Shown here piece after piece: positions 311-58,746 of a stretch of DNA of 64,000 nt (its first letter is position 1; each line of letters starts with the position of its first letter). The stretch is from Eledone cirrhosa (taxonomy: Eukaryota). Location of the stretch: the NCBI GenBank assembly GCA_964016885.1, contig OZ024746.1, positions 77,128,001 through 77,192,000 on the forward strand. The letters run 5' to 3'. The notes beneath the pieces were generated by a model. That model was not told the DNA's origin. It did not search any database and saw only the letters and a program-made list of their open reading frames with translations. The translations under genes were made by a program, and so were the position numbers.

Positions 311-817
311 TATAAAATAATAACAGTTTAAATCTAAATATGAACACTTTAAATCAAATGGCTTTGCATCATAGAAACAAGAGTGGTTTCATGTGGTAGG
401 TGTGTTAAGCCACTGCTGCTAGTGATGGTGACCATCATCATATTATAAATACTTTTTGATTCCAGCAGGTGATGGGGTCCACGTCTTGTTCATACGGTCT
501 ATATTTCGGTATGGTTTCTATGGCAGGATGTTCTAATATCAACTGCTTTACAGGGCATACTGGTTGTATTTTAAATTTGCATCAGCACTGCCACTTTACA
601 GAATGAACTGGGTGCATTTGATCATTGCACCAGCACTACCACATTACAGAATATACTGGGTGTATTTGATTATGACACCATACTTACCACTTTACAAACT
701 GGAGTGGATGCATTTTTTCATGGCAATCATGTGTAATGAAATTAAATTGAAATGGAAAAGTTTGAGGAAATAATAAGAAAACTATCAAATCTTATAGTAT
801 AATAATAAACATAAAGT

Positions 818-16202: not shown

Positions 16203-19077
16203 CTGAAGAATAAAGAAAATATTGTTTAAATTGAGGTAAAGATGCAGTTGTCTGTAACTGCTTTTCCGTGTACATTTTCTGCTGATATTGAAGCTATACT
16301 AGAAGACCCTTGCCCAAGGTGGTGCATAGAGAGACAGGATCCAGAATCAAGTGGGTGTAGAATGAACTCCTTAACCACACTGCCATGCATGTGCCTATGT
16401 TGGCATGGATAAAATAAAAAACACAAGTCTTAAAAATTTGCATAAATTATTGGAATATGGTTTTCATGATTGGATTTCTGTATTAAAAGCAAAAGAAAAA
16501 CCAAGATAGGTAGCATGTATTGCTCTAATATTTGGTATTATCTGCTGTATGTATCCCAGTTTTTAGAATAGGTACCTCATATTCTGCTGTGTCCTATGAG
16601 GTGTCAACTAAAAGGAGTCACAATCCTATCTTGAAAAGCAACGTGAAATGAAGATTCTAGCACAAGAACTCAATACACTGCAGAGTCTAGGAATGAAAAC
16701 CACAACCTGGTAATCATGAATCCAACGCGAACCTCTAAGCCACACATCTTCACTACACTTATGTAGGTTTAGCTGACTCCTGATGAGGTTGCATCTCAAA
16801 GGAGGTTTTGAGTGTGTTAATGTAAGAGGCCCCAGTCCTAACATGGAAAGCAACATGAAATGTGGCATCTTGTTCAAGAATACAATGCACTGCCCAGTTT
16901 AGGAATCAAGCCCAAGACCTTATAATTACAAGTCCAACATCCACACCACTAGGAGGTCATGCACCTTCGCTGATGATGATATTACAAGGTTTGAATCCAT
17001 TGGTCTAGAGAGAATTATGTGATAATTATTGCGCAATCATATTTTTATCAGCTAAGACACCAGCTATTATGTGGTGCAACTCAGCAGTTACACAACTCTG
17101 CTTGATGCTGTTTGCCAGACTGATGCAAAACAGGTTCCATTCATGTTTTTACAGTTGAGTAGTTAACAACAGGAAAAGTATCCAGCTGTAAAAAACAATT
17201 ACTCCAGTGAAATAGAATACAAAATAAAGCTGTCCACAACCCACTTATGCAAGCATGAAAAATAAATGTGAAACCATTGGAAAAAAAAAAATAATAAATT
17301 TAGCAGTAAGTTGAAAAACCTCATTAATAATATCAGTGGTAAGGCCTGTCGCTGCAATGGTAATAATACAAGTTTGTATTGCTAGGAAGATGTTTAAAAG
17401 AAAACATGTGCAGTGAAGTTAATATACTTAATCTAATTGCTGTCCACTGAATGTGCATTAAATAGACAGAGTGCAGGAGAACTAATCAAAACAGAAATTG
17501 CAAATGAAACTATCAAATGAGATATCTTATATGTTGTGGACAGTTGCTGGCAATCATCATCATTTTATGTCCACTTTAAGAAGGTGAATTGGCAGTGTCG
17601 TTAAGGTGTTCGATTAAATGCCTAAGCATTAGTTCAAGCTCCTTGCATTATGAGTTCAATTTCTGCCAAGGTCAACTTTGTTGTTCACGCTTTTGAGGTT
17701 AAATAAAGTACCAGTCAAATACTAGGGGTCCATTCTACCTTTATTTCTTTCCTTCTCCAGAGGAAAACAGCTGTCTTCAGACCTAGGAAGGGACAGGTCA
17801 TGTGCCAGGACAGCACTCCTTCCTTCTATACTGTGACTCTTATGTTTCACATTTGGCATGGTTTCCATGATTGGATGCCATTCCAAGTGCTAACCACTTT
17901 ACAGAGTGTACTGGTTGCATTTTATCATGAAACCAGCACTTCCACTTTATAGTATGTACTGAGACTGGGAGCATTTTATCATAGCACCAGCACTATCATT
18001 TTACAAAGTATACTGGGATTGGATTCATTCTATCATGACACAAGTACTATCACTTTACAGTGAGTACTGGGTGCATTTTACAGTGGTACCAGCAATAATG
18101 ATATCGTCATTGTTGTTTTATGCCTGCGTTTCCAAGCAGACATGGGTTGGATGGGTTTTCTGAGGCATTTTACAGTTAGAAGCCTTTCCTGTTGTCAGCC
18201 TTGATGCATCTAACCATCCACTCTAGAGGAGAAACTGACATGCTGAACATAACTTCTTTGAAAGTAATTGTAAAGAGGAAGTTGACAAATGGAGATATTG
18301 TTGGGAGGAAGCAGAGTGTACTGGGTGCATTTTAATGTGGCACCAGTATCAGGGAGGTTGTCATTTTCTTGACATAACTGAAAAGGCCTCTCAATTCTTG
18401 TCAATAAATAATTGGTTACATAAAGGTAAAGAAAGGAGCCAATTGTTAGATCAAACCAAGGAAACAATATTTCCATTGATCTTTCCATTGCTGTTACTAT
18501 CTGCCAGTTGCAACACCTGGCAGGAAGCAGGATTTAAACTCTGAACCCCAAAAGCTGGATCAGATACCACAGATATCAACTTGTCAACAATTCCACTAAC
18601 CCACAACCCTCAGACTGGTACTTTATTTATCAACCCTGAAAGGAAAAGAGGCAAAGTTGATCTCAGTGGGATTTGAATGCAGAATGCAAGAAACTGAAAC
18701 AATACCGGGGCGTTTAATCTGATATTCTCATGACTCTGCTGTCTTACATAAATTAATATGTGCTGGTGCCATGATAAAATGCACCCAGTGCACTAAAGCA
18801 GAATATAGAAATGCATCTAGTGCATTCAGTAAGGTGTGGGAACATATGTGAGACGTGGGCCCCAAATGGATCCGGTGCACTTGGTAAGCAAGATGCAGGG
18901 CCTCCAGCGATCTGAGATATCAGTAGCTCTGATTAAGTACTTGGTCTATGATAATCTGTCCAACCAACCCTTGCTAGCAAGGAAAACAGACATTAAACAG
19001 TGATGACAATAATAGGGAGTTGTTTGATTGTTTTCTAAGACACATACAATGCCAATATTTAAAAAAATTGTTTTTAC

Positions 19078-22904: not shown

Positions 22905-23375
22905 TTACTGGGTGTATTTTATCATGGCACCAACAGAAGCACTGTAGGTGTACTGGGTACATTTTATTATGGCACCAGCACTAACAGCTTACAAAGTGTT
23001 CTGGGTATATTTTATTGTGGCACCAACACTAACATTTTACAAAGTGTTCTGGGTATATTTTATTGTGGCACCAACACTAACATTTTACAAAGTGTTCTGG
23101 GTATATTTTATTGTGGCACCAACACTAACATTTTACAAAGTGTTCTGGGTATATTTTATTGTGGCACCAGCACTAACATTTTACCAAGTGTACTGGGTGT
23201 ATTTTATTGTGACACGAGCACTTTTATTTTACAACTTTACAGGGTGTACTGGGTGCATTTTAACATAGCAATAGCGCTAACACTTTACAGAATGTACTTA
23301 TCATAGCACCAGCACTAACTACCACTTCACAGAATGCACTAGGTGTATTTTATCATGGCACTAACATTTTACAGA
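22905..23375. repeat. 48-bp minisatellite derived from the RTE-SINE internal module
   Basis: Unit TGTTCTGGGTATATTTTATTGTGGCACCAACACTAACATTTTACAAAG, about 9-10 copies, central ones identical. Confidence 0.92.
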
Positions 23376-36395: not shown

Positions 36396-37280
36396 CAGGG
36401 TGCGGACGATATTTGTTCGCAAGATTACTGTCTAGGAAAAAATAAGTTTTATTTTTTAAGATATATTTATCAAACTTGGGTCAGTTTGTCTTCATGACTT
36501 GGTCTTTCGATCTCACTTGATAAACCCACCATTGGCTTTGATAACGGCTTCAAGGCGGCCTTGGAACCAGCTACAGGCCTTCGTCACTGTCCCCCGACTT
36601 AGGCCCCTAAAGGCACTTGTGATCCTGGCCTTCAGATTGTCTTTCGTATTGCAGCTAGATCTGTTGGTGTCTCGTTCCACTGCACCCCACACAAAGAAGT
36701 CGAGGAGGTTGCAGTCAGGCGAGCTGGGAGGCCAGATGTAAGGTGAAGTGTGGTCGACGAAGTTCTCTGACAGCCAGGCTTGGGTCTTTCGGCTGGTATG
36801 GCAGGGCGCTGAGTCTTGCTGCCACATGTACGGCCTACCTGCAGCTACCTGGTCAATCCAGGGCTTTACTACCTCGTTCAGAATGCAGATATAGCCATCA
36901 GTGTTCAGCTTGAGGACCTCAGGGAAGAAGTGAGGTGGCATGACGTCATCTTGACTGCTGACGACACCTAAGACCAATGTTGTCGCTGGAAACTTTGTCT
37001 GCATGACTCTGGGCACGTCTTTGGATGAGACACCATTCTCCTGCTGACGCTGAGAAAGTCTGAAATTTTCTTATTTGTCCTCCCACCGCAGATTCCAAGA
37101 GGAACTCCATGTCTCTTCCACAAATTTGGAGGTTCAAAATTATTCATAATCAATTATTCTGAAAACAAATAATGGAAATATAGTCACTGATTTTATGAAG
37201 ACAAGAGTGACAACAGAAGTAAATAAAATTTGCATAAAATTAGCAGTTGAAAATTGCGAACAAATATCGTCCTCACCCTG
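36396..37280 (-). mobile_element. Internally deleted DD37D (maT-type) transposon, 885 bp
   Basis: TA-flanked 27-bp TIRs CAGGGTG(C/A)GGACGATATTTGTTCGCAA with one mismatch. ORF 36513-37016 has QQDSAPCH...WPPSSPDCNLLD with 37 residues between the second and third catalytic Asp. The first Asp and most of the HTH are deleted. Confidence 0.95.
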
Positions 37281-40200: not shown

Positions 40201-41208
40201 ATGTGTGAAGGCATATGACTTAGTGGTTGGGATGTTCAGCTCATGATTGTCATGTTGTGAATTTGATTCCCTGCAGCACATTCCTTTAGTCCACTTAACT
40301 CAGAAGTCTCAAATTCAAAGAATCAAAAGGGTCATAGCAGGCCAAAAGTGAGAAGAGTTTGAGGAGTGGGCTGATTTCCACCCCATGCAATATGAGTTGA
40401 CAAATCTATTTCTTTCATTATGAAACAAATTTCCTCATGTTCTGTTGTGCATGTTAGTTATCTGTCATCTGAAGCACACCATCCACACCAATGTGAGTTG
40501 TCAAATCTACCCCTTTTTACATTATGAAACAAAAAAATTTCCTTTATGTTCTATTGTATAAATTTTCTATAATCTAAGACATCCCTCCACCACAATCAGT
40601 TTTTGAAAGAAGTCGAGGTAGATTTCACTAACGCTCTTGTTAAGAATGTTTTTTTTTTAAGTATATAAAATTGGATACATATTTCTACTGATCGGCTTTT
40701 GATCTTGAAGTGAAAGCGACTGATATATTAAAGTACATTCTACTCTTCCTTGGAGAGAAACATGGACAGACCCAGGATGATATTCAAAGGATACGATACA
40801 CGTGTCTGTGGAATGCTCAGCCACTTTCACTTTAATTTCACAAGCAGACTGTTCCACTGTTTAAACAACTGGAACATTCATCATCAGAGGTCATGGGTTA
40901 GACAGGTATGGTTTCTGCAGGTGGATACCCTCCCTAATGCCAACTACTTTACAGAGTGACTGGGTGCACTTTATTGTAAAGCCAGCAATACCTCTTTACA
41001 GAATGTACTGAGTGCATTTTATTGTGGCACCAGTATGAGCACTTTACTAAGTGTACAAGGTACATTTTATCGTGCAATAGCACTATCACACACACACATA
41101 TTATACATTTTAGATTGACTGTAAATAAATTTGACTACTACCAGTATTGAGTTCACCTTACAAGTTGGTATTTATTGTTATTTATAATCCTATAAGTCAA
41201 CAAACCTA

Positions 41209-41267
<59 letters not shown>

Positions 41268-41399
41268 TAGAAGTTGTATTTAATTTGTTGGAAGTCCGAC
41301 AAACAAATGTTTATAACTGATTTAGAGCACTCAACAAGTTACTGGAGTAAATATTCAATGATATTAAATAAATGGAAACTATATTTATAAAACCATATT

Positions 41400-41464
41400 T
41401 ATTTTATTATATATATTTCAAGGGCAACCAAGACAACATTGATACGCTTTCATCAGATAAAATA
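41400..41464 (-). ncRNA. Mirror hammerhead motif, sense to the NKTR-like pre-mRNA
   Basis: Reverse-complement copy of 41594-41658 with one stem II change (U-A to U-G). Confidence 0.75.
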
Positions 41465-41593
41465 CAAAGTTTGTTTTATAAATAGAGACGTACCCATGAA
41501 AATCATACCTTATCGGTTGGAAATTCACTGTGAATTTCCAACCGATAAGGTATGATTTTCATGGGTACGTCTCTATTTATAAAACAAACTTTG

Positions 41594-41658
41594 TATTTTA
41601 TCTGATGAAAGCGTATCAATGTTGTCTTGGTTACCCTTGAAATATATATAATAAAATA
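41594..41658 (+). ncRNA. Minimal type-I hammerhead ribozyme motif
   Basis: Stem I TATTTTAT/ATAAAATA; CUGAUGA at 41602-41608; imperfect stem II AAGCGTA../..TACCCTT; GAAA at 41639-41642; 1-bp stem III with palindromic AUAU loop; AUA cleavage triplet ending at 41650. Confidence 0.75.
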
Positions 41659-41697
41659 AATATAGTTTTATAAATATAGTTTCCATTTATTTAATAT

Positions 41698-41742
<45 letters not shown>

Positions 41743-47805: not shown

Positions 47806-49236
47806 TGTGTGCGTGTGTAAGAGAGAAAGCACAAACAATAATTAAAGTATTTCAAAAACAGATGTACGTTTTGTTTGTTTTTACCTATATCTAGATTATG
47901 CTTCTGATATCCATCCAATCTTAGGATTCATCAACATCAATTTTCAGAACTTGTCATAGCTGGAACACCTTTGATCATAGGTCTTCTCAGACAAGCATAA
48001 AACAAATCCAGTCAACAAAGTGGGTTCGACCGGCCAGAAATAGCTAAATCTCCTCCAAAGGAAGACAATACAGTCGCAGTTGTACAAAAGAATGATGAGA
48101 CGGTCATGGCTGAAACGTCTCTGATCATAGATAAGTTTACTCAATCGGGACTAACCTGGAGGTATACAATAATATAAAGCAAGTGTGGCTTAACATTACA
48201 TTTATCAGGGAAGGTTGATGTAGAGTAGGCAACCAGGGTTAGCAAGCTTCAGTGATATAATGCATAAGAATTGTTTCGAGTTTTTCAAGAAACACGAACG
48301 TTAACGATAATATGCAATATGTTTACACATCATGAACAAATTTATGAATCAGTAAATTGTAGAATTTTAAGAAAAAGAAAGAAAAAATAAGAAAAATAAA
48401 CAAGCTTAGCAACTTGATCAATAACGTTGGCGACGGCGAGTGGATACTGACTGATTATATATATATATAGCAGTTGTGAGATAGATAATGGACAGATCCT
48501 CACTCAAATCGATAAATGTTATAATTATTCCGACGCTAATCAATACTAAACACAGACAAAACAACTATCCTCCGATATGTTTTGCTGTATTATTATTATT
48601 ATTGGTAGTCCCGCCGAGGTTAACTTTGCCTTTCATCTTTACGAGGTCGATAAAATAAAGTACCAGTAACGTACTGAGTTTTTGCTGGCCTTGTGCCAAA
48701 AGTAGAAACAATTATTATTATTGGTAATGAACCGAGGTTAACTTTACCTTTCACAATTCCGGGGTCGATAAAATAAAGTACCAGTCAAGTACTGAGGGTC
48801 GATTTAATCAACTTTCCCCTCTCCCCACAAAAACTGCTGCCCTTGTGTCTAAATTAGAAAACAATATTATTTGTAATGAATCACAGAATTGTCCGAATTA
48901 AAAATTTCTTAATTTAATCGATACTTTGTAAATCCGCGGAACTGCTATGTACAAAAGAGTTAATTGGTAATATTACAAACCAGACCAATGCAGCTAAATA
49001 CTTCTGGTGCAAATATAAACTAAAAGAGAATTCAGTTAGACCCTCTCCTTAATAATTTAACCCTCCAAATAAAAAAGTATTTTCACTTTATTATCATTTT
49101 CCACCATAATCTCACCAATAGAAATAGAACTACTTGAAAGGCAGAATTGATTGTGTGTATGTATATATATATATAAAGGAAATGAATACAAAGAGTTTAA
49201 AACCGTTAAAACACGTTTATATAATAATATATATCC

Positions 49237-49293
<57 letters not shown>

Positions 49294-52100
49294 GATATAT
49301 ACATACATACACTAGTAATCTCAGTAATATAAAATAAATATAATAGTTTCTACTATGGTATTGAGCACTTTTCCTCGGCGTACCGATTATATATATATGT
49401 ATTAAAGCACTAAAGCTGCCAATGTCAGTCACTATAAAACCATTTTTTTTTTTTCAATGAAGTATAAATTATTTTCGGGATTTCGACGAAGGAGAGCAGC
49501 AGAAACATAACTGTTATTATATGATATTTCTCTCTGTAGTTGAAGAAAATATATGAGATAAAATATAACGATGGTGATAATGGCGGAACACGAACATACA
49601 AATTACACATAGTAGAGTTATAATATAGTTACAGCACAATACACAATATATATATATATATATATATATATACAGCAAACAACAAGGGGTAATACAACGG
49701 CTGCTGCTGGCTAACTCTTCGTTTTATATTTGTTGAATAGTGACGGAGATTTTAGCAACAAAAAAAAAGCCTACATCTAACTACATAAGCTTATATAGTC
49801 ATAACAAGTAGATAACAATTTGAATAGAACAATATATGCACTACAAGATAATTTTAGTTTTGCAGATTTTTTTTTGTCTTCTTTCTCATCCTCAAATGCT
49901 TATTAAATGCGGCAGATATATATGTAATTCCTAACGAACATCCTTTACAATTGTAAATATGACACACGATACAAAACAAAATGGTTTCAAAATGTATTCA
50001 GTTAAAAATCTACAACTATATGTTACGTGTGTGATGCACTCAACCATCTAAACTATTAAAATGGTTGGTTATCCAAATATATTTACAATAGATTAATATA
50101 TACATATACACGCATACATGATTATATACGTAACCGACTATATAAATAGATAGATTAGTCTTCGGATAGTTTTTTTGAAAAGACTTAGCGAACACTCGCT
50201 TTGCTGAAACATTGTAGCTATGTTGTAAGAAAATTAATAAACTTAAATATTTACTCTATTATTAATACGAAGTTCTTTCTCTTTCACAGATTACTAATAT
50301 CATTAGATTAGAACCATATATATGTAACCTTGTTTGTAAAAATATACATTAATTAGTAGTCACATAATTTAACAAGAAAATAAACAGCGCTATAAACTAG
50401 TGTAGTAGTAAGATCGTTTAGTATGCGGGAAGAAAACGTTTAAGAAAGAATGCATTTAGTGTCATCAATTATCATCAGTGAGATCGATGTTTTTTGTTTT
50501 GTTCAACAAAAGCGGAAGCAGTGATATTTAGAACAGACCATAAAAAAAAAATCCTCGGAGCAAGAGGTGTTAATTGTCAATTGACACTACCTACTTTTTA
50601 TGCAGAAATGCATCTTTCTCCCAGTATATACTAATGTATTGCATACAGAAGCATAAATATATATATATATAAAGTGTATTTTTAACAAGAGGATAAAGTA
50701 AGATGAGGAGAGGTAATAAAAACAACAGAAAATATGTCCAAGATTACATTTAAACGGCGAGGAAAATGGAAAGCATGCACGATTAAGGTATACGATAATA
50801 ATTTCGGAATAAAATCGCCTCGATTCTCACTACTTAAAACGAATATATAGTATTAAAGGTTAAGAAATACTAATTACAGATGTAACGCTGATCAAGCATG
50901 AGTCTATATATACATATAAAACAGAAATCATTAGGAATACCTCAAGAATGCTTCATGTACATCATTAAAGATTTCAGGAATGGCGGTTTATAGATCTGAC
51001 CTAAAAAAAGGTGCGATAGATTCGCACCATAAAATTAAACGGAATAAAAACAAATTGTGTACAGAAATAAATAGATTATGATGCTATCTAATATATTGAA
51101 AAATGTGATCACGAATAATAGCACGAGTATGTTTTATTGATTTGAACACATTTTAAAATTAAATGGTTGAAACGGCGATAAAAGTTTTTAATAAAACCCT
51201 AAACATTATAATGGACTGAACCAGAGGGGTTTGACGTGACGTAAACCAGGAAGGTTGTGGTTTTTTCGTGCCTCTGTATACCACTTTAACAGTTTTGGAA
51301 CTTCAAGTGGATAGAATCATTTTTTTCTAAAAAAATTTCTAAAATTAACTTGTTGTTTTATATATAAACATAACCAAATTGCTTATTTCCGTTAGAGGTG
51401 TTAAAGGTATAATAATATAAAATATAAGTACGAATTTATTTATGGGATTAAGTAACTCATTTAATGATTCATTCGCAAACCTAATGGATATATATTTTAT
51501 TAAAACCAGAAATATTACCGTACTTGCAATTTTATTCAACGTTGATATTGCCTTTGATAAATTTAAACCTTATAATTGTTCGTTTCTACCACAAAACGTA
51601 GCAAGCTTAATATACTACGTTTTCAAGAAAACAGAAGCTATCGGCTCCTTCAACAATATATTTATATAATCGTATTTGCAATTATTTGAAGCGTAGGACA
51701 CCCGACTAAATGCCATTCACTCCTGTATCCTCAAATCCCGATGGCGTTGACTCTGCTCTTCATCATTTTGTTTGTCTATAAAACAAATACCAGTAATACA
51801 CTAGGAAAAGTAACTGGTTTGAGCCAAGACCCGTTCGAAATTTGGTTTTGTACTTCTTTAACAGAACATTCAGACTTACAGGAAGGAACGAAGGAAGTTT
51901 ACTCGTGACATTCAATAAGTTTTCTCAAGGGCATTAGCAACAGAAATAAAACGATTCCAGATGGGAATCGAAACCGAATATCTTATATACATACTTCTCT
52001 GTCTGACATGAAAGCTTAGATGTACAAGAAAAGGGAAAAGAAATTGTATGTCATGCATGCGTTTTTTGAAGCGAATGAACTTTGATGGAGAAAAAAAATT
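47300..52100. promoter_or_regulatory. Candidate promoter / non-coding first exon region of the NKTR-like gene
   Basis: Upstream of the ATG exon and visibly richer in CpG than the gene body. Contains TGACGTGACGTAA (overlapping CRE/ATF-like sites, 51232-51244), CAGGAAG (ETS-like, 51247-51253) and AATGGCGG (YY1-like, 50979). The TSS cannot be located. Confidence 0.4.
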
Positions 52101-52231: not shown

Positions 52232-52466
52232 TGACACTTTCTCTAGTAGCAACTTGACACATTTAATGATAGGCCCATGTTTTGTGGCTAGACAAGCAGA
52301 AGATAGCAAGCTGTTGAAGTATCAACCACTTTCTTATAGGTTTGTCATTAAATCTATAGTGGTGGAGACTTCTGGTATTCTGGGTACCCGAACCACCTCT
52401 CTACTATTGGGACAGAGTTGGCTACCTGCAAATTGTAATGTCTATTTCAACAGGTCTGCTTTATGA
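52232..52466 (+). pseudogene. Fragment of a REL endonuclease domain from a CRE/NeSL-like non-LTR retrotransposon
   Basis: DTFS.S....GP..VARQAEDSKLLKYQPL...F....VETSGILG matches the DT..S...AA..AE..K..KY..L...F.P...ET.G..G pattern. Confidence 0.65.
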
Positions 52467-52736
52467 TCATCACTTTCAGTTCTGTCTGGTGTCTGCACAT
52501 TGGTGAGCATGCAGCTGGTTTCGTGTGGACGTCCAGCCAGATGATTTAGAGACAGTTGCTTCTGATAGGACCTTCTGGAAGGCATGTCAGGACTCTGTTC
52601 CCACAATCCTCTCATGCACAACTGGGAGAAGAAGATTGCAAATTGGTGTGTGCGTGTGTCTGTGTATACATATGTCCCAAGGCTCTGATACCATCAACAC
52701 TATAAACACAGAGCTGGCATATCTAAGAACTGACTA

Positions 52737-52794
52737 ACTGCCTGATGAGGTCATAGCCATTCAATGGCTATCATTGAAATATATATATAGCAGT
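52737..52794 (+). ncRNA. Minimal type-I hammerhead ribozyme motif (PLE-type)
   Basis: Stem I ACTGC/GCAGT; CUGAUGA at 52742-52748; stem II ATAGCCAT/ATGGCTAT with G.U base; GAAA at 52776-52779; palindromic AUAUAU loop III; AUA triplet ending at 52789; AATAAA follows. Confidence 0.8.
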
Positions 52795-53239
52795 AAATAA
52801 AGGATTATGAGTTCATGCAATTGACTTATGTTTCGTCACTATATATATATATATATATACATGTATACATATATTCATTTGCACATACATCATTCATTTT
52901 ACATCACTTTTCTATACTGGTGAGGGTTGGACAGGTTGTCATAATCTGAGATTAGATGAGTTAAAGGGACCTTATCTTGCTCACACATTCTATATTTGAC
53001 ATGGTTTCTACAGCTAGGTGCCTTTCCTAATGCCAGTGGTACAAACACTACCACTTTGCAAAGTGGGTGTATCTTATTGTGGCACAAGCACTAACACTTT
53101 ACAGAGTGTAGTGAGTGTATTTTATCATGACATCAGCACTACCACTCTATCATATATTGTCTCTGTTCAATTAACAGCCTCAAAATTAGGAATTACTATG
53201 GGACAATCTGCTGGAAGCCATGAACCAGGCAAGATGGAA

Positions 53240-53965
53240 GGTCACATGGTGGTGGTTGAATGATAAGGTAGAAAAAGCCATTAAAACTAAAAGACAAGCC
53301 TCAAGAGAGTGGGGGAGACAGAAAGCTATACCAGATAGCTTGATGAGAAGCCAGGCACCAAGTATATCTAGTGAAGGGAGAAGCAGAAAAGAAGAAATTT
53401 GCACATATTTTGCATTATGAAGATTAGAGGCATGATGTGTTCCATACTGTGAGAAAGTATGCTAAAGAAAATTGTGATGTGGTTGGGGAAAAGTGTGTCC
53501 AAAATGATAGTGGAGCACTTGCCCTATCTGATGCTGAAAAGAAACAGGCATAGAAAACTTACTATGAGAGGCTGCTGAACAAGGAAAATATATGGGACAG
53601 TGAATGGCTACTCCATGCAGACCCAACTGAAGGACCAGCCATAAAGGTTGACAGTGGCATGATAGATAATGCAATTAAGGATATGAAGGTAAAGAAGGCA
53701 GCTAGACCATCTGGTATAGTCGCTGAAATGCTTACAGCATTGGTATAGTAGGATACAAGCTAGTCAGATGCATAGTTAATCAAATAGTATAGGTTGGTAT
53801 CATACCCAATGACTGGTGCAGCAGTGTCTCTAATGAAGAGAGAAGTAACTACAGAGGCATCAAGTTGATGGACCAGGTCATGAAAATTACAGAAAAGGTT
53901 ATGGCACAACTAATTAGGGAAAAAAAATCAAGTTAGACGAGATGCAGTTTGGATTTATACCATGT
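53240..53965 (+). pseudogene. Decayed RTE LINE fragment (N-terminal to the RT core)
   Basis: TWWWxNDKVEKAI..., KAARPSGIVAEML, NYRGIKLMDQVMK and LDEMQFGF remnants with frameshifts. Confidence 0.85.
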
Positions 53966-56874
53966 AACTGAAAATGAGTACCAGCAATAGCTGGGGGTTT
54001 AACCCTGTGATGGACCGATGTCCTGTCCAGGGGAGGGGGTCTTGTGCTCTCAGTCACTTCACACCATGAAACTGAAATAAGCACCAGCCTAACACACCTT
54101 CTGGCTTAAGACAGACTTTTTAGACACATTAGGTAGAAACTTCTCCAATATATTCCCTTTTCATTGCAACCCTTTAGATTTCACTTCCTTCATATTTTTA
54201 CCCCTTTCAATCACAAATCTGAAACATTAAAAAAAATCCTAATTTCCACCCCTTTTGATACCAACATGTCTCAAACCATCCTTATTTCTGTAAAATAAAA
54301 CAACCCATCTTAAAGGATTTTTATTTAAATTGAAATCTTCCTGTATAATTTGATACAAACACAATTTATTAAGTATAAATACCAGTTTAATAATGAACTA
54401 ATTGAATTTTTTAGTAAACCCCCCCCCCCCCCCCAAAAAAAAAAATGTTCATTAATTAATTGAAATAGAATGTATGTCATTAGGAATGATGAGGATGCGG
54501 ATGGTGATGGTAAGAATGATGATGGTGAGGATAATGATTGTGAAAATGATAATGAGGATGAGGATGATGGTAATAATGATGATGAGAATGTCGATGGTGA
54601 CAATAATGATGATGATGAGGATAATGGTAGTAATGATATTGAAGGTTATGCGCAAAAAGGTTAATCTTTCCTCACTCCTTAAATGTCCCACCCACCCTCT
54701 CTAACAAAACCTAAAATGTCTGTATGTATTGCCTGTCTCCCCATGTTAACAAATAAAAGCAAATTCCTATCCTGCCTAAATTTTAACACTCCGAATATAC
54801 TCTGTGGAACATAACTTCAAAAACAATTAGACACAAACATTTCATTTTATACAGATAAGGACTTTATACTTTTAAAAGATCCCTCAATAAAGTATTCTTA
54901 TATTATTTTGCTTCAAAGGGGAATGTATCCTTTATCAAACAAGCTTCAGTTGTATTTGATTGCATGTTTTAGGTTAATATGTCACTTAATATGTTATGCT
55001 GTTAGATAAAAGGAGATAAATGTCTTCTTAATAGTTTTAATCTAAGCCCATTATGCAGTCCATCTGCTATTACAAATGTTTATGAAAACTCTCAAATTAC
55101 TGAGCAATTTTTTGAAGTGACAATACTTAAAATAAATATAATGTTACATTATTATATTGATTTGAATTAACATTTTACTGATTCTAATTCAAATGTGTGC
55201 AGCAAGTAAAGGATTATAATTTACATAAATATTTCACATGATCTCTGACATTATTCAGTAATACAGAAAACCTGCCTTCCCATGTGCACAGGTTGAAGCA
55301 TACATTTAGTATGCACCACTTTTCCTAACTTTCCCTTCTCTTGTCCTAATACTCCACCCTTCACCCACGCCCCTATCCTCACCTGATAAGTCCCCCACCC
55401 CTAGATCTGCCTCTCCTCTCCCCATGCATCTTCTCCACCCCAGCCCCCAGTTCACACTGTAAAGTGGTCATGTAGGTGTCATGGCAAAAAGCATCCAGCC
55501 CTCATTGTAAAGTGGTCATGTAGGTGTCAGGACAAAAAGCATCCAGCCCTCATTGTAAAGTGGTCATGTAGGTGCCAGGACAAAAAGCACCCAGTACACA
55601 CTGGCAATGTGATTGGCATTAGGAGGGCATCCAGCCATAGAAACCAAGCCAAAATTAGTTCTGTATGAGCAAGACACGGTCATCTGCTCTGGCTTGTCTC
55701 ACTACGGGACAACTTGTCTAACCCATGCTAGCATGGAAAAACACGTTAAACAGGGATGATGATGATGGTGATGATAAACAGGAAGGAAGAAAAATTTATG
55801 TAGAAAAGGGGAACTTATTTCACATGGCAATGGAGTTACAGTGCTGGACTATTAAGCTCATGACATTAAGTTTAAATTTTACTATAATGATTATATAGTC
55901 TGTGCCTCTTGCTGTGGTTTTTGAAATGCCATCAAAGCTTGGTTTGTATGATGACAAACTAACTGATCTTTTGTTAATTATACAATCTGTTTCTTATTTG
56001 AATTGTCAGACAAAAGAAGAAAGAGATGAATGTTTTATCATTGCATGCATTGAAATAGAAAGACGTTTTAAGTGAGTATTAATGAAATATAAACTTGTGT
56101 ATGTGGATTGGCAGTATCGATAGAGGGTCGGATGCCATGCTTTCCAGCATAGTTACGTCCCTTTACGATCTGAGTTTAAATCCCGCCAAGGTTGACTTTG
56201 CCTTTCATCCACTGGATAATTGCTGGCCTTGTGCCTAAAGTAGAAACAATTAATGAAATATAAACTTAGAAGAAAAAACAACTGCATTATATTTATAAAA
56301 AATAACTACCGGTGTAATTTTTATAATGAAATTCTAAAGAATAATGTGGATAACCAACTGAACTAGTAGCTTATATCTTGAATTGAAGAATTATATTGGC
56401 AGTTTAAAGAATTCAAAGAAGACAACTTAACTTTACACACACCATTTCACTGACTAGTCAAATAATATCTTTCTGATTTCTGTGGAAATATTCTGAAGCC
56501 TCATGTATTCTTGGAGAATATAACAGGAATTCTTTCCATTATAATCTTTTTCAGGCATAAATTCAGTTTATTTTTTTCTTCAGAAAATACTGCAGATTCT
56601 TTATCTATCAGGCCTTCTGCAGTAATATTTTATTTGATGGTGTTTATCTAATTCTATGTGTATTGGTAGAGTTGCTAGAAGGTCAGATAGAATGGTTATT
56701 GGTTCAAATCCTGCTGAGGTCAACTTTGCCTTTCATCCTTTCAAGGTTGATAAATAAATTACTGGGGTTGATTCTTCCTCAATATTTCTTTCTCACCCTT
56801 TCTCTATTTATCACCCTTAATTATTCCACGAAGAGTTAGGGGGCTCATCTCATGGATTAGTATAATACGAAATA

Positions 56875-58746
56875 TCATCATCATCATCATCATCATCATC
56901 ATTTTACGTCCGCTCTTCCCTGCTCGCAAGGGTGTGACGGGTCTTATTCAGCACAGCATCTCTCCACTCGTCACGGTCCTTCGTCATCTCCACCGTGAGC
57001 TTCAATGATCTGAGGTCTGTTCTCACCACCTCCGCCCATGTTTTTCGTGGTCTACCTCTACCACGTCTTCCTTCAACTGGCATTTCCTGGCACTTCTTCA
57101 CCCATCCTCCATGCACATCACATGTCCATACCACCTCAGTCTCCTCTCCCGTATACTACATTCTATCCCTCTCAGACACAGTTTCTCTCTCAACACATTA
57201 ATGCTGGGTCGTTCACGCACATTTACACTGCACATCCAATGGAGCATGCTTGCCTCATTTCTCTCCAGCCGTCGCATATCCTCTGCAGTTGCTGCCCATG
57301 TCTCACTACCATGCAGCATCGCGCTCCTCACACAGGCAACATACAACCAGCCTTTCGTACACAGGGAGAAACCCTTCTTCATCAGCAGAGGAAGCAGCTC
57401 CCTAAACTTCTTCCAACCCATCCTTATTCTAGATACTATGGCCTCGGAACACCCTCCTCCCATGCTAATCTGATCTCCTAGGTACCGGAAGCTATCCACC
57501 ACTTCTATAGCACCCTCCTGCATTTGAAAAATGTGTATATCAATGCGACTTCTACTGTCTAATTTCCCTGTACATCTACTGCATACATAGTTCTCCCTAC
57601 CTGTTAGTTTGCCTGCTATCCCGCTACATCTCTTGTGTACCCAGGATGTGCATTGTGTGCATTTTATAGAATTTATGCCAGTTCCTTTTCTGCATATCGA
57701 ACATGGCCATTTCCCTGACGGAATCAGAGTTTTGTCCTCTTTGCTACTCATCAACACTTTTGTCTTAGCTAGGTTCACTCTCAGTCCTCTTGCTTCCAAC
57801 TGCTGTTTCCATAGCCAGAATTTATTCTCTAGCTCCTCTACTGATTCTGCTATAAGAACCAGATCGTCAGCATAGAGAAGTTCCCATGGACAGCCAGTCT
57901 TAAACTCCTCTGTTATGACTTGGAGGACTATAATGAACAAGAGCAGGCTGTGGACCGAACCTTGATGTACTCCCACTTGTATCTGGAATTTCTCACTAAA
58001 CTCCATTCCTACCCTGACTTTACTGAGAGTACCTCTGTACAAAGTTTGCACTGTCCTCACAAGCCATTCCTCAACACCTAGTTTCCTTAGGGACCACCAG
58101 ATGACAGATCGGGGTACCCTATCAAAGGCCTTCTCTAGGTCAACAAAGGCTAAGTATAGTGGCTTATTTTTCTCCAAGAACCTCTCTTGCAATTGTCTCA
58201 CCAAGAAGAGGGCATCTGTTGTACTCTTCCCAGGCACAAAACCAAACTGCATCTCATCTAGTTTGACCCTTTTTCTAATTAGTTGTGCTAATATCCTTTC
58301 TGCCACTTTCATAACCTGATCCATCAGTTTTATACCCCTATAATTGCTCCTCTCCAGAGCATCCCCTTTACCTTTGTAGCAATTTATGAGAATACTGCTG
58401 CACCAGTCTTTGGGTATGACACCACCATATATAGCCTGATTGATGATGCGTGCAACCAGTTTAGTGCCTACGTCCCCTGATGCCTTCAGCATCTCAGCAA
58501 CTATTCCTGATGTTCCAGCAGCCTTACCATTTTTCATTTCCTTAATCGCCTCTTGGACCCTATATTCGTCAATCTCAATAGCTGGTCCCTCTGTCGGATC
58601 TACTAAGGGTAATTTCTCTCTCTCCCATTCGTTCTCCACATTCATCAGTCTCTCATAATGACATTTACAGGCCTCCTTTTTGTGATCATTCGTGACACTA
58701 AGTACACCGATATCATCCCAGACACATTTATCTCCAACAACATCCT
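56875..58746 (-). mobile_element. 5'-truncated RTE-clade LINE
   Basis: RT ORF, then a frameshifted C-terminus (GRRGRGRPRKTW) and a GGACGTAAAAT(GAT)n tail. No endonuclease domain is present. Confidence 0.93.
57098..58645 (-). CDS. RTE reverse transcriptase (truncated, frameshifted near the C-terminus) with a PHD-like finger
   Basis: NYRGIKL, QFGF, FVDLEKAFDRVP, GVHQGS, LYADD, FRYLG and RRLRWYGHV motifs. Confidence 0.9.
   Translation of the reverse strand: MNVENEWEREKLPLVDPTEGPAIEIDEYRVQEAIKEMKNGKAAGTSGIVAEMLKASGDVGTKLVARIINQAIYGGVIPKDWCSSILINCYKGKGDALERSNYRGIKLMDQVMKVAERILAQLIRKRVKLDEMQFGFVPGKSTTDALFLVRQLQERFLEKNKPLYLAFVDLEKAFDRVPRSVIWWSLRKLGVEEWLVRTVQTLYRGTLSKVRVGMEFSEKFQIQVGVHQGSVHSLLLFIIVLQVITEEFKTGCPWELLYADDLVLIAESVEELENKFWLWKQQLEARGLRVNLAKTKVLMSSKEDKTLIPSGKWPCSICRKGTGINSIKCTQCTSWVHKRCSGIAGKLTGRENYVCSRCTGKLDSRSRIDIHIFQMQEGAIEVVDSFRYLGDQISMGGGCSEAIVSRIRMGWKKFRELLPLLMKKGFSLCTKGWLYVACVRSAMLHGSETWAATAEDMRRLERNEASMLHWMCSVNVRERPSINVLREKLCLRGIECSIRERRLRWYGHVMCMEDG

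What the first reader, a model, noticed from the sequence alone, without database searches (positions are those of the whole stretch)
52737..52801. Independent hammerhead with the same architecture but different helices
Seen: ACUGC-CUGAUGA-long stem II-GAAA-UAUAUAUAUA-GCAGU followed by AAUAAA, between microsatellites. The stem sequences are unrelated to the palindrome copies, yet the core, UA-palindromic loop III, AUA triplet and trailing poly(A) signal are the same. That conservation of structure supports real ribozymes. Established: minimal hammerheads with a palindromic loop III are thought to act as dimers. Inference: the UA loops of the two types might cross-dimerise.
Basis: partly seen in the sequence, partly recalled or inferred. 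Interest (0 to 1): 0.72.

Follow-up and report, generated by a model that had tools for sequence, protein, structure and literature searches.

The report
Penelope-type hammerhead in abundant octopod repeat
This is a real but slightly decayed copy of a small self-cutting RNA motif (hammerhead) inside a very abundant short repeat of an octopus-like genome, of a kind already known from Penelope-like jumping genes, and the proposed pairing with a second hammerhead type nearby would not form a working ribozyme.

Summary
The hammerhead at 52737-52794 is real: intact core, 5-bp stem I, 11-pair stem II with one C-C mismatch, palindromic helix III, AUA site, cut 52789|52790. No shuffle gave this (0 of 300). 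It sits in a ~170-bp element (52670-52838) between microsatellites. Laid runs show the element is an extremely abundant family in this octopod. The family majority restores the G10.1-C11.1 pair, which the window copy has lost (C to U in a CpG), and raw reads mostly show an 8-nt palindrome like the 41.6-kb type. Best reading: the 3' end (pLTR) of a Penelope-like element, or a non-autonomous derivative, carrying the published dimer-type minimal hammerhead. The parent RT/GIY-YIG gene was not found; cleavage and expression are untested. The cross-dimer idea fails: pairing helix III between two RNAs also swaps the stem I strands, and the two types pair 0 and 1 bp, against 5 and 8 within type. 'Unrelated' is overstated (weak stem II and tail similarity), and AAUAAA does not align between the types. 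New member of a known kind; low interest.

The parts
52670..52838 (+). Whole repeat copy (~170 bp), inferred 3' end / pLTR fragment of a Penelope-like element or a non-autonomous derivative
   Evidence: Summed depth 2.2-4.3e5 over 52680-52838 in X1 against 93-147 at 52600-52639; X10 loose ends at 52665 and 52669; (TA)n from 52839
52670..52722 (+). 5' hairpin, 14 bp with a 4-nt bulge, starting at the element's left edge
   Evidence: -13.0 kcal/mol, z -2.68, 2 of 200 shuffles as good; segment chosen after seeing the fold
52737..52741 (+). Stem I, 5' strand
   Evidence: 5 Watson-Crick pairs with 52790-52794
52742..52748 (+). Catalytic core C3-A9 (CUGAUGA)
   Evidence: sequence; descriptor hit
52749..52775 (+). 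Stem II: 3 pairs, C-C mismatch, 8 pairs, 3-nt loop; pair 10.1-11.1 is G-U here, G-C in the family majority
   Evidence: z -3.73, 0 of 200 shuffles; pair list; C at 52775 in 143174 of 144031 depth in X1 and in 756 of 873 and 464 of 714 reads in X10
52776..52779 (+). Core G12-A15.1 (GAAA)
52779..52788 (+). Helix III palindrome, 10 nt in this copy; 8 nt in most raw reads of the family
   Evidence: self-duplex -5.6 kcal/mol, hairpin form +3.6 to +4.5; 1365 of 1589 X10 reads lack 2 letters at 52779, but only 1672 of 145315 depth in X1 contigs
52787..52789 (+). AUA cleavage triplet; predicted cut 52789|52790
   Evidence: position by hammerhead numbering; cleavage not tested
52790..52794 (+). Stem I, 3' strand
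52796..52801 (+). AAUAAA in the AU-rich stretch after stem I; use as a poly(A) signal untested
   Evidence: 318 of 20000 random 14-nt stretches of the window hold it; 9 of 56 published PLE-type motifs show it within about 12 nt of the cut, my hand count of PMC4209133 Fig. S3
52802..52834 (+). 3' hairpin in the 44-nt tail; candidate site where reverse transcription starts (inference by analogy)
   Evidence: z -1.96, 6 of 200 shuffles; analogy to PMC11167929
52646..52674 (.). Left flank, imperfect TG/TA microsatellite
52839..52878 (.). Right flank, (TA)n running into TACA-type repeats; likely insertion target
41594..41658 (+). Comparison motif: second hammerhead type in the right arm of the 363-bp palindrome 41348-41710
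41400..41464 (-). Comparison motif: mirror copy in the left arm; sense to the NKTR-like cyclophilin gene, inside an intron

Best explanation
The motif is a minimal type I hammerhead carried near the 3' end (pLTR) of a young, very abundant Penelope-like element family of an octopod; the window holds one 5'-truncated (or non-autonomous, ~170-bp) copy inserted in a TA-rich microsatellite. How it works: an AU-only helix III is too weak to close in one RNA. Two family RNAs (two pLTRs of a tandem transcript, or two separate transcripts) pair their palindromes into one 8-10-bp helix and swap stem I strands, giving two cores that cut after AUA and leave a 2',3'-cyclic phosphate and a 5'-OH at 52790; the element's protein may assist. 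Stem I, not the shared UA palindrome, decides which RNAs can partner. This copy has lost C11.1 by a CpG-type change and has gained one TA unit, so it is probably a weakened passenger with no host role. Shown: anatomy, non-randomness, high copy number, majority letters. Inferred: Penelope parentage, dimer cleavage, methylation-driven decay.
For: Descriptor and controls. Repeat family with its own depth block, about ten times the neighbouring RTE-like repeat. Majority C at 52775 raises stem I pairing probability from about 0.25 to about 0.75. The copy lies in a CpG-depleted stretch, o/e 0.15. Homodimer -32.0 (window) and -34.4 (majority state) against -11.8 and -13.6 for an open monomer; closing helix III in a monomer costs about 3 kcal/mol. 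PMC4209133 describes long helix II, 4-5-bp helix I, palindromic helix III, G10.1-C11.1, mostly single truncated copies and opposite-strand pairs 100-700 bp apart, as seen here and at 41.4-41.7 kb. PMC8557442 gives 5' truncation, inverted copies, hammerheads near 3' ends and (TA)n targets for PLEs. Penelope families are recently active in Octopus vulgaris (PMC13282606). Nearest protein hit of the host gene is from Argonauta.
Against: No RT or GIY-YIG reading frame was found beside the motif or by motif search of the window, and no parent element was retrieved. In the simplest register there is no unpaired base between A9 and G10.1, which most published motifs have (two listed variants also lack it). 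Conservation inside a young family reflects descent, so it is not evidence of selection; 86 variant rows were not shown and covariation was not tested. The same build occurs in a contig that looks bacterial (L086), so the architecture alone does not prove Penelope origin. Published activity of such motifs is low or absent: none as monomer, 1 of 9 Xenopus dimers cut, and the anole hammerhead needed protein and was dispensable for insertion in vitro.
Confidence: 0.76

Rival explanations
1. Dispersed monomer of a non-LTR retrozyme: a ~170-nt tandem unit processed by the hammerhead into circular RNA and reinserted.
For: Size is at the low end of the 170-400 nt range of animal retrozymes; molluscs carry them (PMC7229834); monomers are common and retrozymes are proposed to derive from pLTRs (bioRxiv 10.64898/2026.07.22.740005); the element has hairpins at both edges.
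Against: Single copy in the window. One search lists two joints, both upstream; none links the element's 3' end to its 5' end (weak: RAD fragments stop at 52822, contigs are short and filtered). The cut site is internal, about 49 nt from the 3' end, not at a unit boundary. Retrozyme hammerheads are described as mostly canonical, this one has the PLE-type build. 403 X10 reads continue upstream of 52669 into other, shared sequence.
Confidence: 0.12
2. Active cross-family system: the UA palindromes let this type and the 41.6-kb type form a cleaving heterodimer.
For: The palindromes can pair with each other (-3.9 kcal/mol); the family's common 8-nt form matches the other type's length; both + strand motifs lie on one strand 11.1 kb apart.
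Against: Cross stem I pairing 0 and 1 bp; heterodimer -5.3 (window) and -12.8 (majority state) kcal/mol, with no stem I in either core. The + strand is antisense to the host gene and a CpG-rich, promoter-like stretch lies between the two. The other published swap, in crickets, needs matching stems I and II (PMC2837043).
Confidence: 0.02
3. The hammerhead belongs to the 3' region of the upstream LINE remnants (RTE-like end 52490-52645 or CRE-like endonuclease remnant 52280-52480; both labels recalled).
For: Same strand and within 100-400 bp.
Against: Three separate depth blocks with troughs between them; organism B holds the two upstream repeats but has depth 0 on 52680-52838; the second RTE-like copy at 63715-63645 is not followed by this element.
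Confidence: 0.03
4. A copy co-opted by the host as a regulator of the neighbouring promoter region, for example cutting divergent transcripts.
For: Lies just outside a CpG-rich stretch (48-52 kb, o/e 1.0-1.2) upstream of an NKTR-like gene on the other strand, in the orientation a divergent transcript would read.
Against: This copy is worse than the family majority at the conserved 10.1-11.1 pair and misfolds more; no conservation in the other species laid; no + strand gene found by a low-sensitivity scan.
Confidence: 0.03
5. Chance: a TA microsatellite next to a hairpin and a core-like word.
For: TA runs are everywhere in the window; TA runs followed by GCAG occur twice elsewhere; free folding does not favour the hammerhead.
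Against: 0 of 300 shuffles, 0 of 64 viral matches; the family majority letter is the one the ribozyme needs; a second type in the window has the same build.
Confidence: 0.01

Closest known systems
Minimal and small-palindrome type I hammerheads in the pLTRs of metazoan Penelope-like elements (Cervera and de la Pena 2014, PMC4209133; main text parts 1, 2, 4 and supplement file 2 parts 1-2 read)
   Same: Core, 5-bp helix I, long helix II, palindromic helix III, G10.1-C11.1 in the family, AU-rich tail, many single dispersed copies, opposite-strand pair nearby. AUA triplets are in their list (D. willistoni, Schmidtea). Nearest in build: Saccoglossus (2), with long helix II, no bulge and an extended palindrome.
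   Different: Octopod host (their molluscs are Lottia and Crassostrea; 'octopus' 0 hits in the searchable supplement); AU-only 8-10-nt palindrome; helix II longer (11 pairs) with an internal C-C; link to an RT/GIY-YIG frame not shown here.
Poseidon element of Anolis, PAc (Frangieh et al. 2024, PMC11167929; parts 1-2 of 4 read)
   Same: Hammerhead shortly upstream of the copy ends, AT-rich targets, stem-loop near the end.
   Different: There the ORF starts in stem II and the loop is AC-rich; here the ATGs inside the motif run into stops within 15 codons and no protein partner is known.
Animal non-LTR retrozymes (Cervera and de la Pena 2020, PMC7229834, passages; Li et al. bioRxiv 10.64898/2026.07.22.740005, parts 1-3 of 5)
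   Same: Short, non-coding, high-copy, type I hammerhead, low GC.
   Different: Tandem units and circular RNA define them; no tandem joint seen here, and the hammerhead is of the PLE type.
Dimer-cleaving PLE hammerhead variants (Lunse, Weinberg, Breaker, RNA Biol; not held; known only through the review PMC6765202, passages)
   Same: Short palindromic stem III, cleavage as dimers.
   Different: Could not compare sequences; whether octopod examples or heterodimer tests are in it is unknown.

Membership tests
PLE-type minimal type I hammerhead | Core CUGANGA ... GAAA ... UH in type I order | tested here: met
PLE-type minimal type I hammerhead | Short helix I (4-5 bp) and long helix II | tested here: met
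   5 bp; 3 + 8 pairs
PLE-type minimal type I hammerhead | Palindromic 15.2-16.2 and loop 3, unstable as monomer | tested here: met
PLE-type minimal type I hammerhead | G10.1-C11.1 pair (family level) | tested here: met
   majority C at 52775 in X1 and X10; the window copy itself has G-U, read as decay
PLE-type minimal type I hammerhead | Unpaired base between positions 9 and 10.1 | tested here: inconclusive
   absent in the simplest register, possible in a shifted register with a bulge; two published variants lack it
PLE-type minimal type I hammerhead | Families with compensatory changes | tested here: inconclusive
   copies not available as sequences; 86 variant rows hidden. Between the two window types, 2 intact pairs of stem II differ on both sides, 3 with the majority letter, n = 2
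PLE-type minimal type I hammerhead | Self-cleavage as dimer | not testable with these tools
   energy model only
Penelope-like element (EN+) | RT plus GIY-YIG frame linked to the pLTR | tested here: inconclusive
   none next to this copy, as expected for a truncated copy; genome not held; parent not retrieved
Penelope-like element (EN+) | 5'-truncated copies in (TA)n targets, hammerhead near the 3' end | tested here: met
   flanks; some reads start in TA-rich flanks at 52665, others continue upstream of 52669; features from PMC8557442
Non-LTR retrozyme | Head-to-tail tandem units each with a hammerhead | tested here: not met
   single copy; no end-to-start joint listed, a weak test
Non-LTR retrozyme | Expressed as linear and circular monomer RNA | not testable with these tools
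   no RNA holder listed
Rfam hammerhead families | Covariance-model match | tested here: not met
   no hit at E up to 10 on 181 bases; 0 of 5 other motifs of this build were hit either

The most novel reading that the evidence does not exclude
A young octopod family of order ten thousand ~170-nt hammerhead elements works in trans: any transcript that reads through a sense copy can be cut by pairing with any other family RNA, and stem I acts as a family password that keeps families with the same UA palindrome from activating each other. Cephalopod introns and UTRs would then hold a genome-wide, RNA-only cleavage network seeded by a retroelement.
Probability: 0.07. Interest if true: 0.7.

Novelty: new member of a known kind. 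Interest (0 to 1): 0.22.

Why it matters
As it stands, little: it adds an octopod family to a class reported across animals in 2014. I found no cephalopod hammerhead in the held library (the nearest paper on dimers was not held), so a young, very abundant family is a modest addition and a handy substrate for the open question of what PLE hammerheads do in vivo. The useful lesson is structural: a shared palindrome is not enough for cross-family dimers, because stem I is swapped too. It would matter much more if dispersed copies were shown to cut host transcripts in trans.

Tried and rejected
Own-genome search: no genome held, so copies could not be collected as sequences and no covariation statistics were run. 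Rfam on the window and on the motif: only microsatellite-driven miRNA matches, a tRNA-like hit and weak chance hits. Sequencing runs: no RNA holder listed, which says nothing on expression. Run X5 laid nothing, which can be a filter effect. Read starts and ends at 52586, 52817 and 52822 in X10 coincide with CATG and AATT words and were rejected as element or cleavage ends (restriction sites of the RAD library; enzyme identity is my inference). Family-specific pattern in metagenomes: 0 matches. In prokaryote genomes: 1 match, without the core upstream, rejected as chance. General pattern in metagenomes: 8 of 37 matches have both stems, in about four sequence families; none showed a Penelope-like frame upstream on inspection of 14 of the 37 loci, so they show the build recurs but not its carrier. 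The upstream continuation seen in X10 is not in the window. Short PLE protein motifs (recalled) found nothing convincing in six frames. Pfam on the upstream remnant found nothing and the ESM Atlas gave only unnamed clusters, so the CRE-like and RTE-like labels remain recalled resemblances. Pfam on + strand frames 49.8-64 kb: 0 families in 6 frames, low sensitivity. A distal extension of stem I (52727-31 with 52810-14) had pairing probability 0 and was dropped. Paper searches: hammerhead + Penelope + heterodimer 0 papers; hammerhead ribozyme + octopus 5 papers, none of the 4 listed describing one (two checked by passages; two judged from the listing); self-cleaving ribozyme + cephalopod 7 papers, 5 listed, one more checked by passages. 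Supplement file 1 of PMC4209133, bioRxiv supplements and the RNA Biol paper were not seen and could hold octopod examples. Earlier scan notes: none for this genome or sequence.

Full report
Observation. It parses as a type I hammerhead: stem I of 5 Watson-Crick pairs (52737-41 with 52790-94), core CUGAUGA, stem II 52749-75, GAAA, a 10-nt self-complementary AU run from A15.1 to U16.1 (52779-88), and A17, so the cut would fall between 52789 and 52790. A descriptor run on both strands found 3 hits in 64 kb: this motif and the two arms of the palindrome at 41348-41710. In 300 block-wise dinucleotide shuffles, 10 gave any hit and none gave a hit with a palindromic helix III. As a natural control, 64 viral-contig matches to the core-plus-TA pattern included none with both stems. 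Against it: the free fold of this copy prefers a small hairpin over the core (z -0.92), the first pair of stem II is G-U, and Rfam does not see it, though Rfam also missed five other motifs of the same build.

Setting. The window is from an octopod: the one protein hit for a long exon is an NKTR-like cyclophilin of Argonauta at 67% identity, and that protein maps as exons on the minus strand from 45422 down to 4528. CpG observed/expected is 1.0-1.2 at 48-52 kb and 0.15 at 52-54 kb, so the promoter probably lies at 48-52 kb (inference) and the motif is upstream of the gene on the other strand. The palindrome at 41.3-41.7 kb is intronic. No whole genome was held.

The motif is one copy of a large family. 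Laying four runs on 52240-52838 at 80% likeness gave three separate depth blocks in the window's species: about 1.7e3 at 52360-79, about 3e4 at 52540-79, and 2.2-4.3e5 over 52680-52838, with troughs of 0 and about 100 between them. Single contigs in that run have depth 3-15, which would mean order 1e4 copies, but the tool warns that summed depth is no copy number. Organism B held the two upstream repeats and nothing on 52680-52838; organism C laid nothing at all. Within 52670-52819 three differences were listed. At 52775 the majority letter is C (143174 of 144031 depth in X1; 756 of 873 and 464 of 714 reads in X10), which turns the base of stem II into the conserved G10.1-C11.1 pair; the window's T is what deamination of a methylated CpG would give (inference). 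At 52779, 1365 of 1589 X10 reads lack two letters, so the common palindrome is 8 nt, the length of the 41.6-kb type; X1 contigs show this in only 1672 of 145315 depth, so the two runs disagree in share. The third is a one-letter gap at 52723 from a single read start. 86 rows were not shown; the rows shown all reach about 0.6 share in some run, so I infer, without seeing them, that the window letters are common at the other places, including the C-C mismatch. With the majority letter, stem I pairing probability rises from about 0.25 to about 0.75. This is conservation by recent descent, not proof of selection.

Edges. The right edge is the (TA)n at 52839, 49 nt after the cut site. At the left, 263 X10 reads leave the stretch at 52665 into TA-rich sequence of low agreement, and 403 leave at 52669 into a more uniform sequence; how many loci these stand for is unknown in a RAD library. 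So some copies begin here and others are longer, which fits 5' truncation of a longer parent. A 14-bp hairpin starts at 52670 (z -2.68) and another fills the tail (z -1.96); both segments were picked after seeing a fold. No joint from the element's end back to its start was listed.

Independence of the two types. Stem I and the upstream region share nothing (p 0.39). Stem II and the tail are weakly alike (72 and 81 of 2000 shuffles; 12 of 2000 for the 3' strand of stem II, chosen after the fact). Read pair by pair from the core, the two stems II have four identical pairs, two intact pairs changed on both sides (three with the majority letter), one changed on one side, and C-C at pair 4 in both; both tails are about 44 nt. 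Remote kinship is therefore at least as likely as independence. The AAUAAA is not at an aligned place in the two types. It is uncommon by chance in the window (318 of 20000) but recurs after 9 of 56 published motifs (my hand count), whose consensus is simply 'AU rich'; nothing here shows it is used.

Mechanism. Closing helix III within one RNA costs about 3 kcal/mol; the two-RNA form scores -32.0 for this copy and -34.4 for the majority state, against -11.8 and -13.6 per open monomer. In that form A15.1 of one RNA pairs with U16.1 of the other, so each core needs the 5' strand of stem I from one RNA and the 3' strand from the other (my reasoning from the topology). Within type these give 5 and 8 pairs; across types 0 and 1, and the heterodimer scores -5.3 (or -12.8 with the majority state) with no stem I. 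The UA runs of the two types can stick together (-3.9) but cannot build a core. The cross-dimer inference is rejected; stem I sets partner choice. These are nearest-neighbour energies, not experiments.

Comparison with what is known. PMC4209133 (main text parts 1, 2 and 4, supplement file 2 parts 1-2) describes this kind: long helix II, 4-5-bp helix I, palindromic helix III, G10.1-C11.1, thousands of mostly single copies, opposite-strand pairs 100-700 bp apart, no activity as monomer and low activity as dimer. PMC8557442 (passages) gives 5' truncation, inverted copies and (TA)n targets. PMC11167929 (parts 1-2 of 4) found the anole hammerhead protein-assisted, dispensable for insertion in vitro, and without read ends at the cut site. 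PMC13282606 (passages) lists 31 recently active Penelope-like families in Octopus vulgaris and does not mention ribozymes. Retrozymes (PMC7229834, passages; bioRxiv 10.64898/2026.07.22.740005, parts 1-3 of 5) are the main rival and are themselves proposed to come from pLTRs. The same build turned up in 8 of 37 metagenome matches, one in a bacterial-looking contig, so it is not diagnostic of Penelope by itself. The defining link to an RT/GIY-YIG frame could not be shown. I file the motif as a PLE-type minimal hammerhead and hold Penelope parentage at about three in four. Earlier scan notes on other genomes reached the same kind of verdict; they are not independent support.

Verdict. Real motif, known kind, new octopod family, this copy slightly decayed; cross-dimer idea not supported. 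Interest 0.22.

Noticed in passing
window 41348-41710: 363-bp palindrome (181-nt arms, 98% complementary, 1-nt spacer) with a hammerhead in each arm, in an intron of the NKTR-like gene; the minus-strand copy is sense to the pre-mRNA, where the full hairpin would probably mask it. Its stem I has a 12-bp distal extension.
   Followed up: partly
window 52752 with 52772; 41612 with 41635: Both hammerhead types have a C-C mismatch at the fourth pair of stem II; could be a conserved contact or chance.
   Followed up: partly
window 52681-52693, minus strand: 13 letters that resemble, from memory, the primer-binding site for initiator tRNA-Met used by plant LTR elements; no LTR end beside it and it forms part of the 5' hairpin; probably chance.
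   Followed up: no
window 52280-52480 +: Frameshifted remnant resembling, from memory, the restriction-like endonuclease end of CRE-type retrotransposons; a repeat family of its own, also in organism B; Pfam and Atlas gave no name.
   Followed up: partly
window 52490-52645 +; 63715-63645 -: Two copies of a LINE-like 3' end (RTE-like by recall); abundant in organisms A and B.
   Followed up: partly
window 48001-52000: CpG-retaining stretch (o/e 1.0-1.2) against 0.12-0.65 in all but one other 2-kb bin; likely promoter of the NKTR-like gene; the strong depletion at 52-56 kb might mark the body of an undetected + strand gene.
   Followed up: partly
window 57098-58744 -; 53160-54000 +: 549-codon open RT frame with an inserted PHD finger (Pfam RVT_1 E 6.8e-28, PHD 1.6e-5) and a broken relative 400 bp downstream of the finding.
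   Followed up: no
window 36513-37070 -: Tc1/mariner-like DDE remnant, weak Pfam DDE_3 hit.
   Followed up: no
window 546-696, 17910-18071, 22948-23234, 40946-41047, 53036-53152, 55458-55594: Dispersed repeat family with internal 48-bp tandem units.
   Followed up: no
L076 499-534 -, L097 492-527 -, L086 49-84 -: A hammerhead family with a UA palindrome and AUA site; L086 lies downstream of bacterial-looking genes at a contig end, so such dimer-type motifs may not be confined to animal retroelements, or the contig end is chimeric.
   Followed up: no
window 48448-48475: TA run followed by GCAGT and preceded by a core-like word without stem II; likely chance.
   Followed up: no
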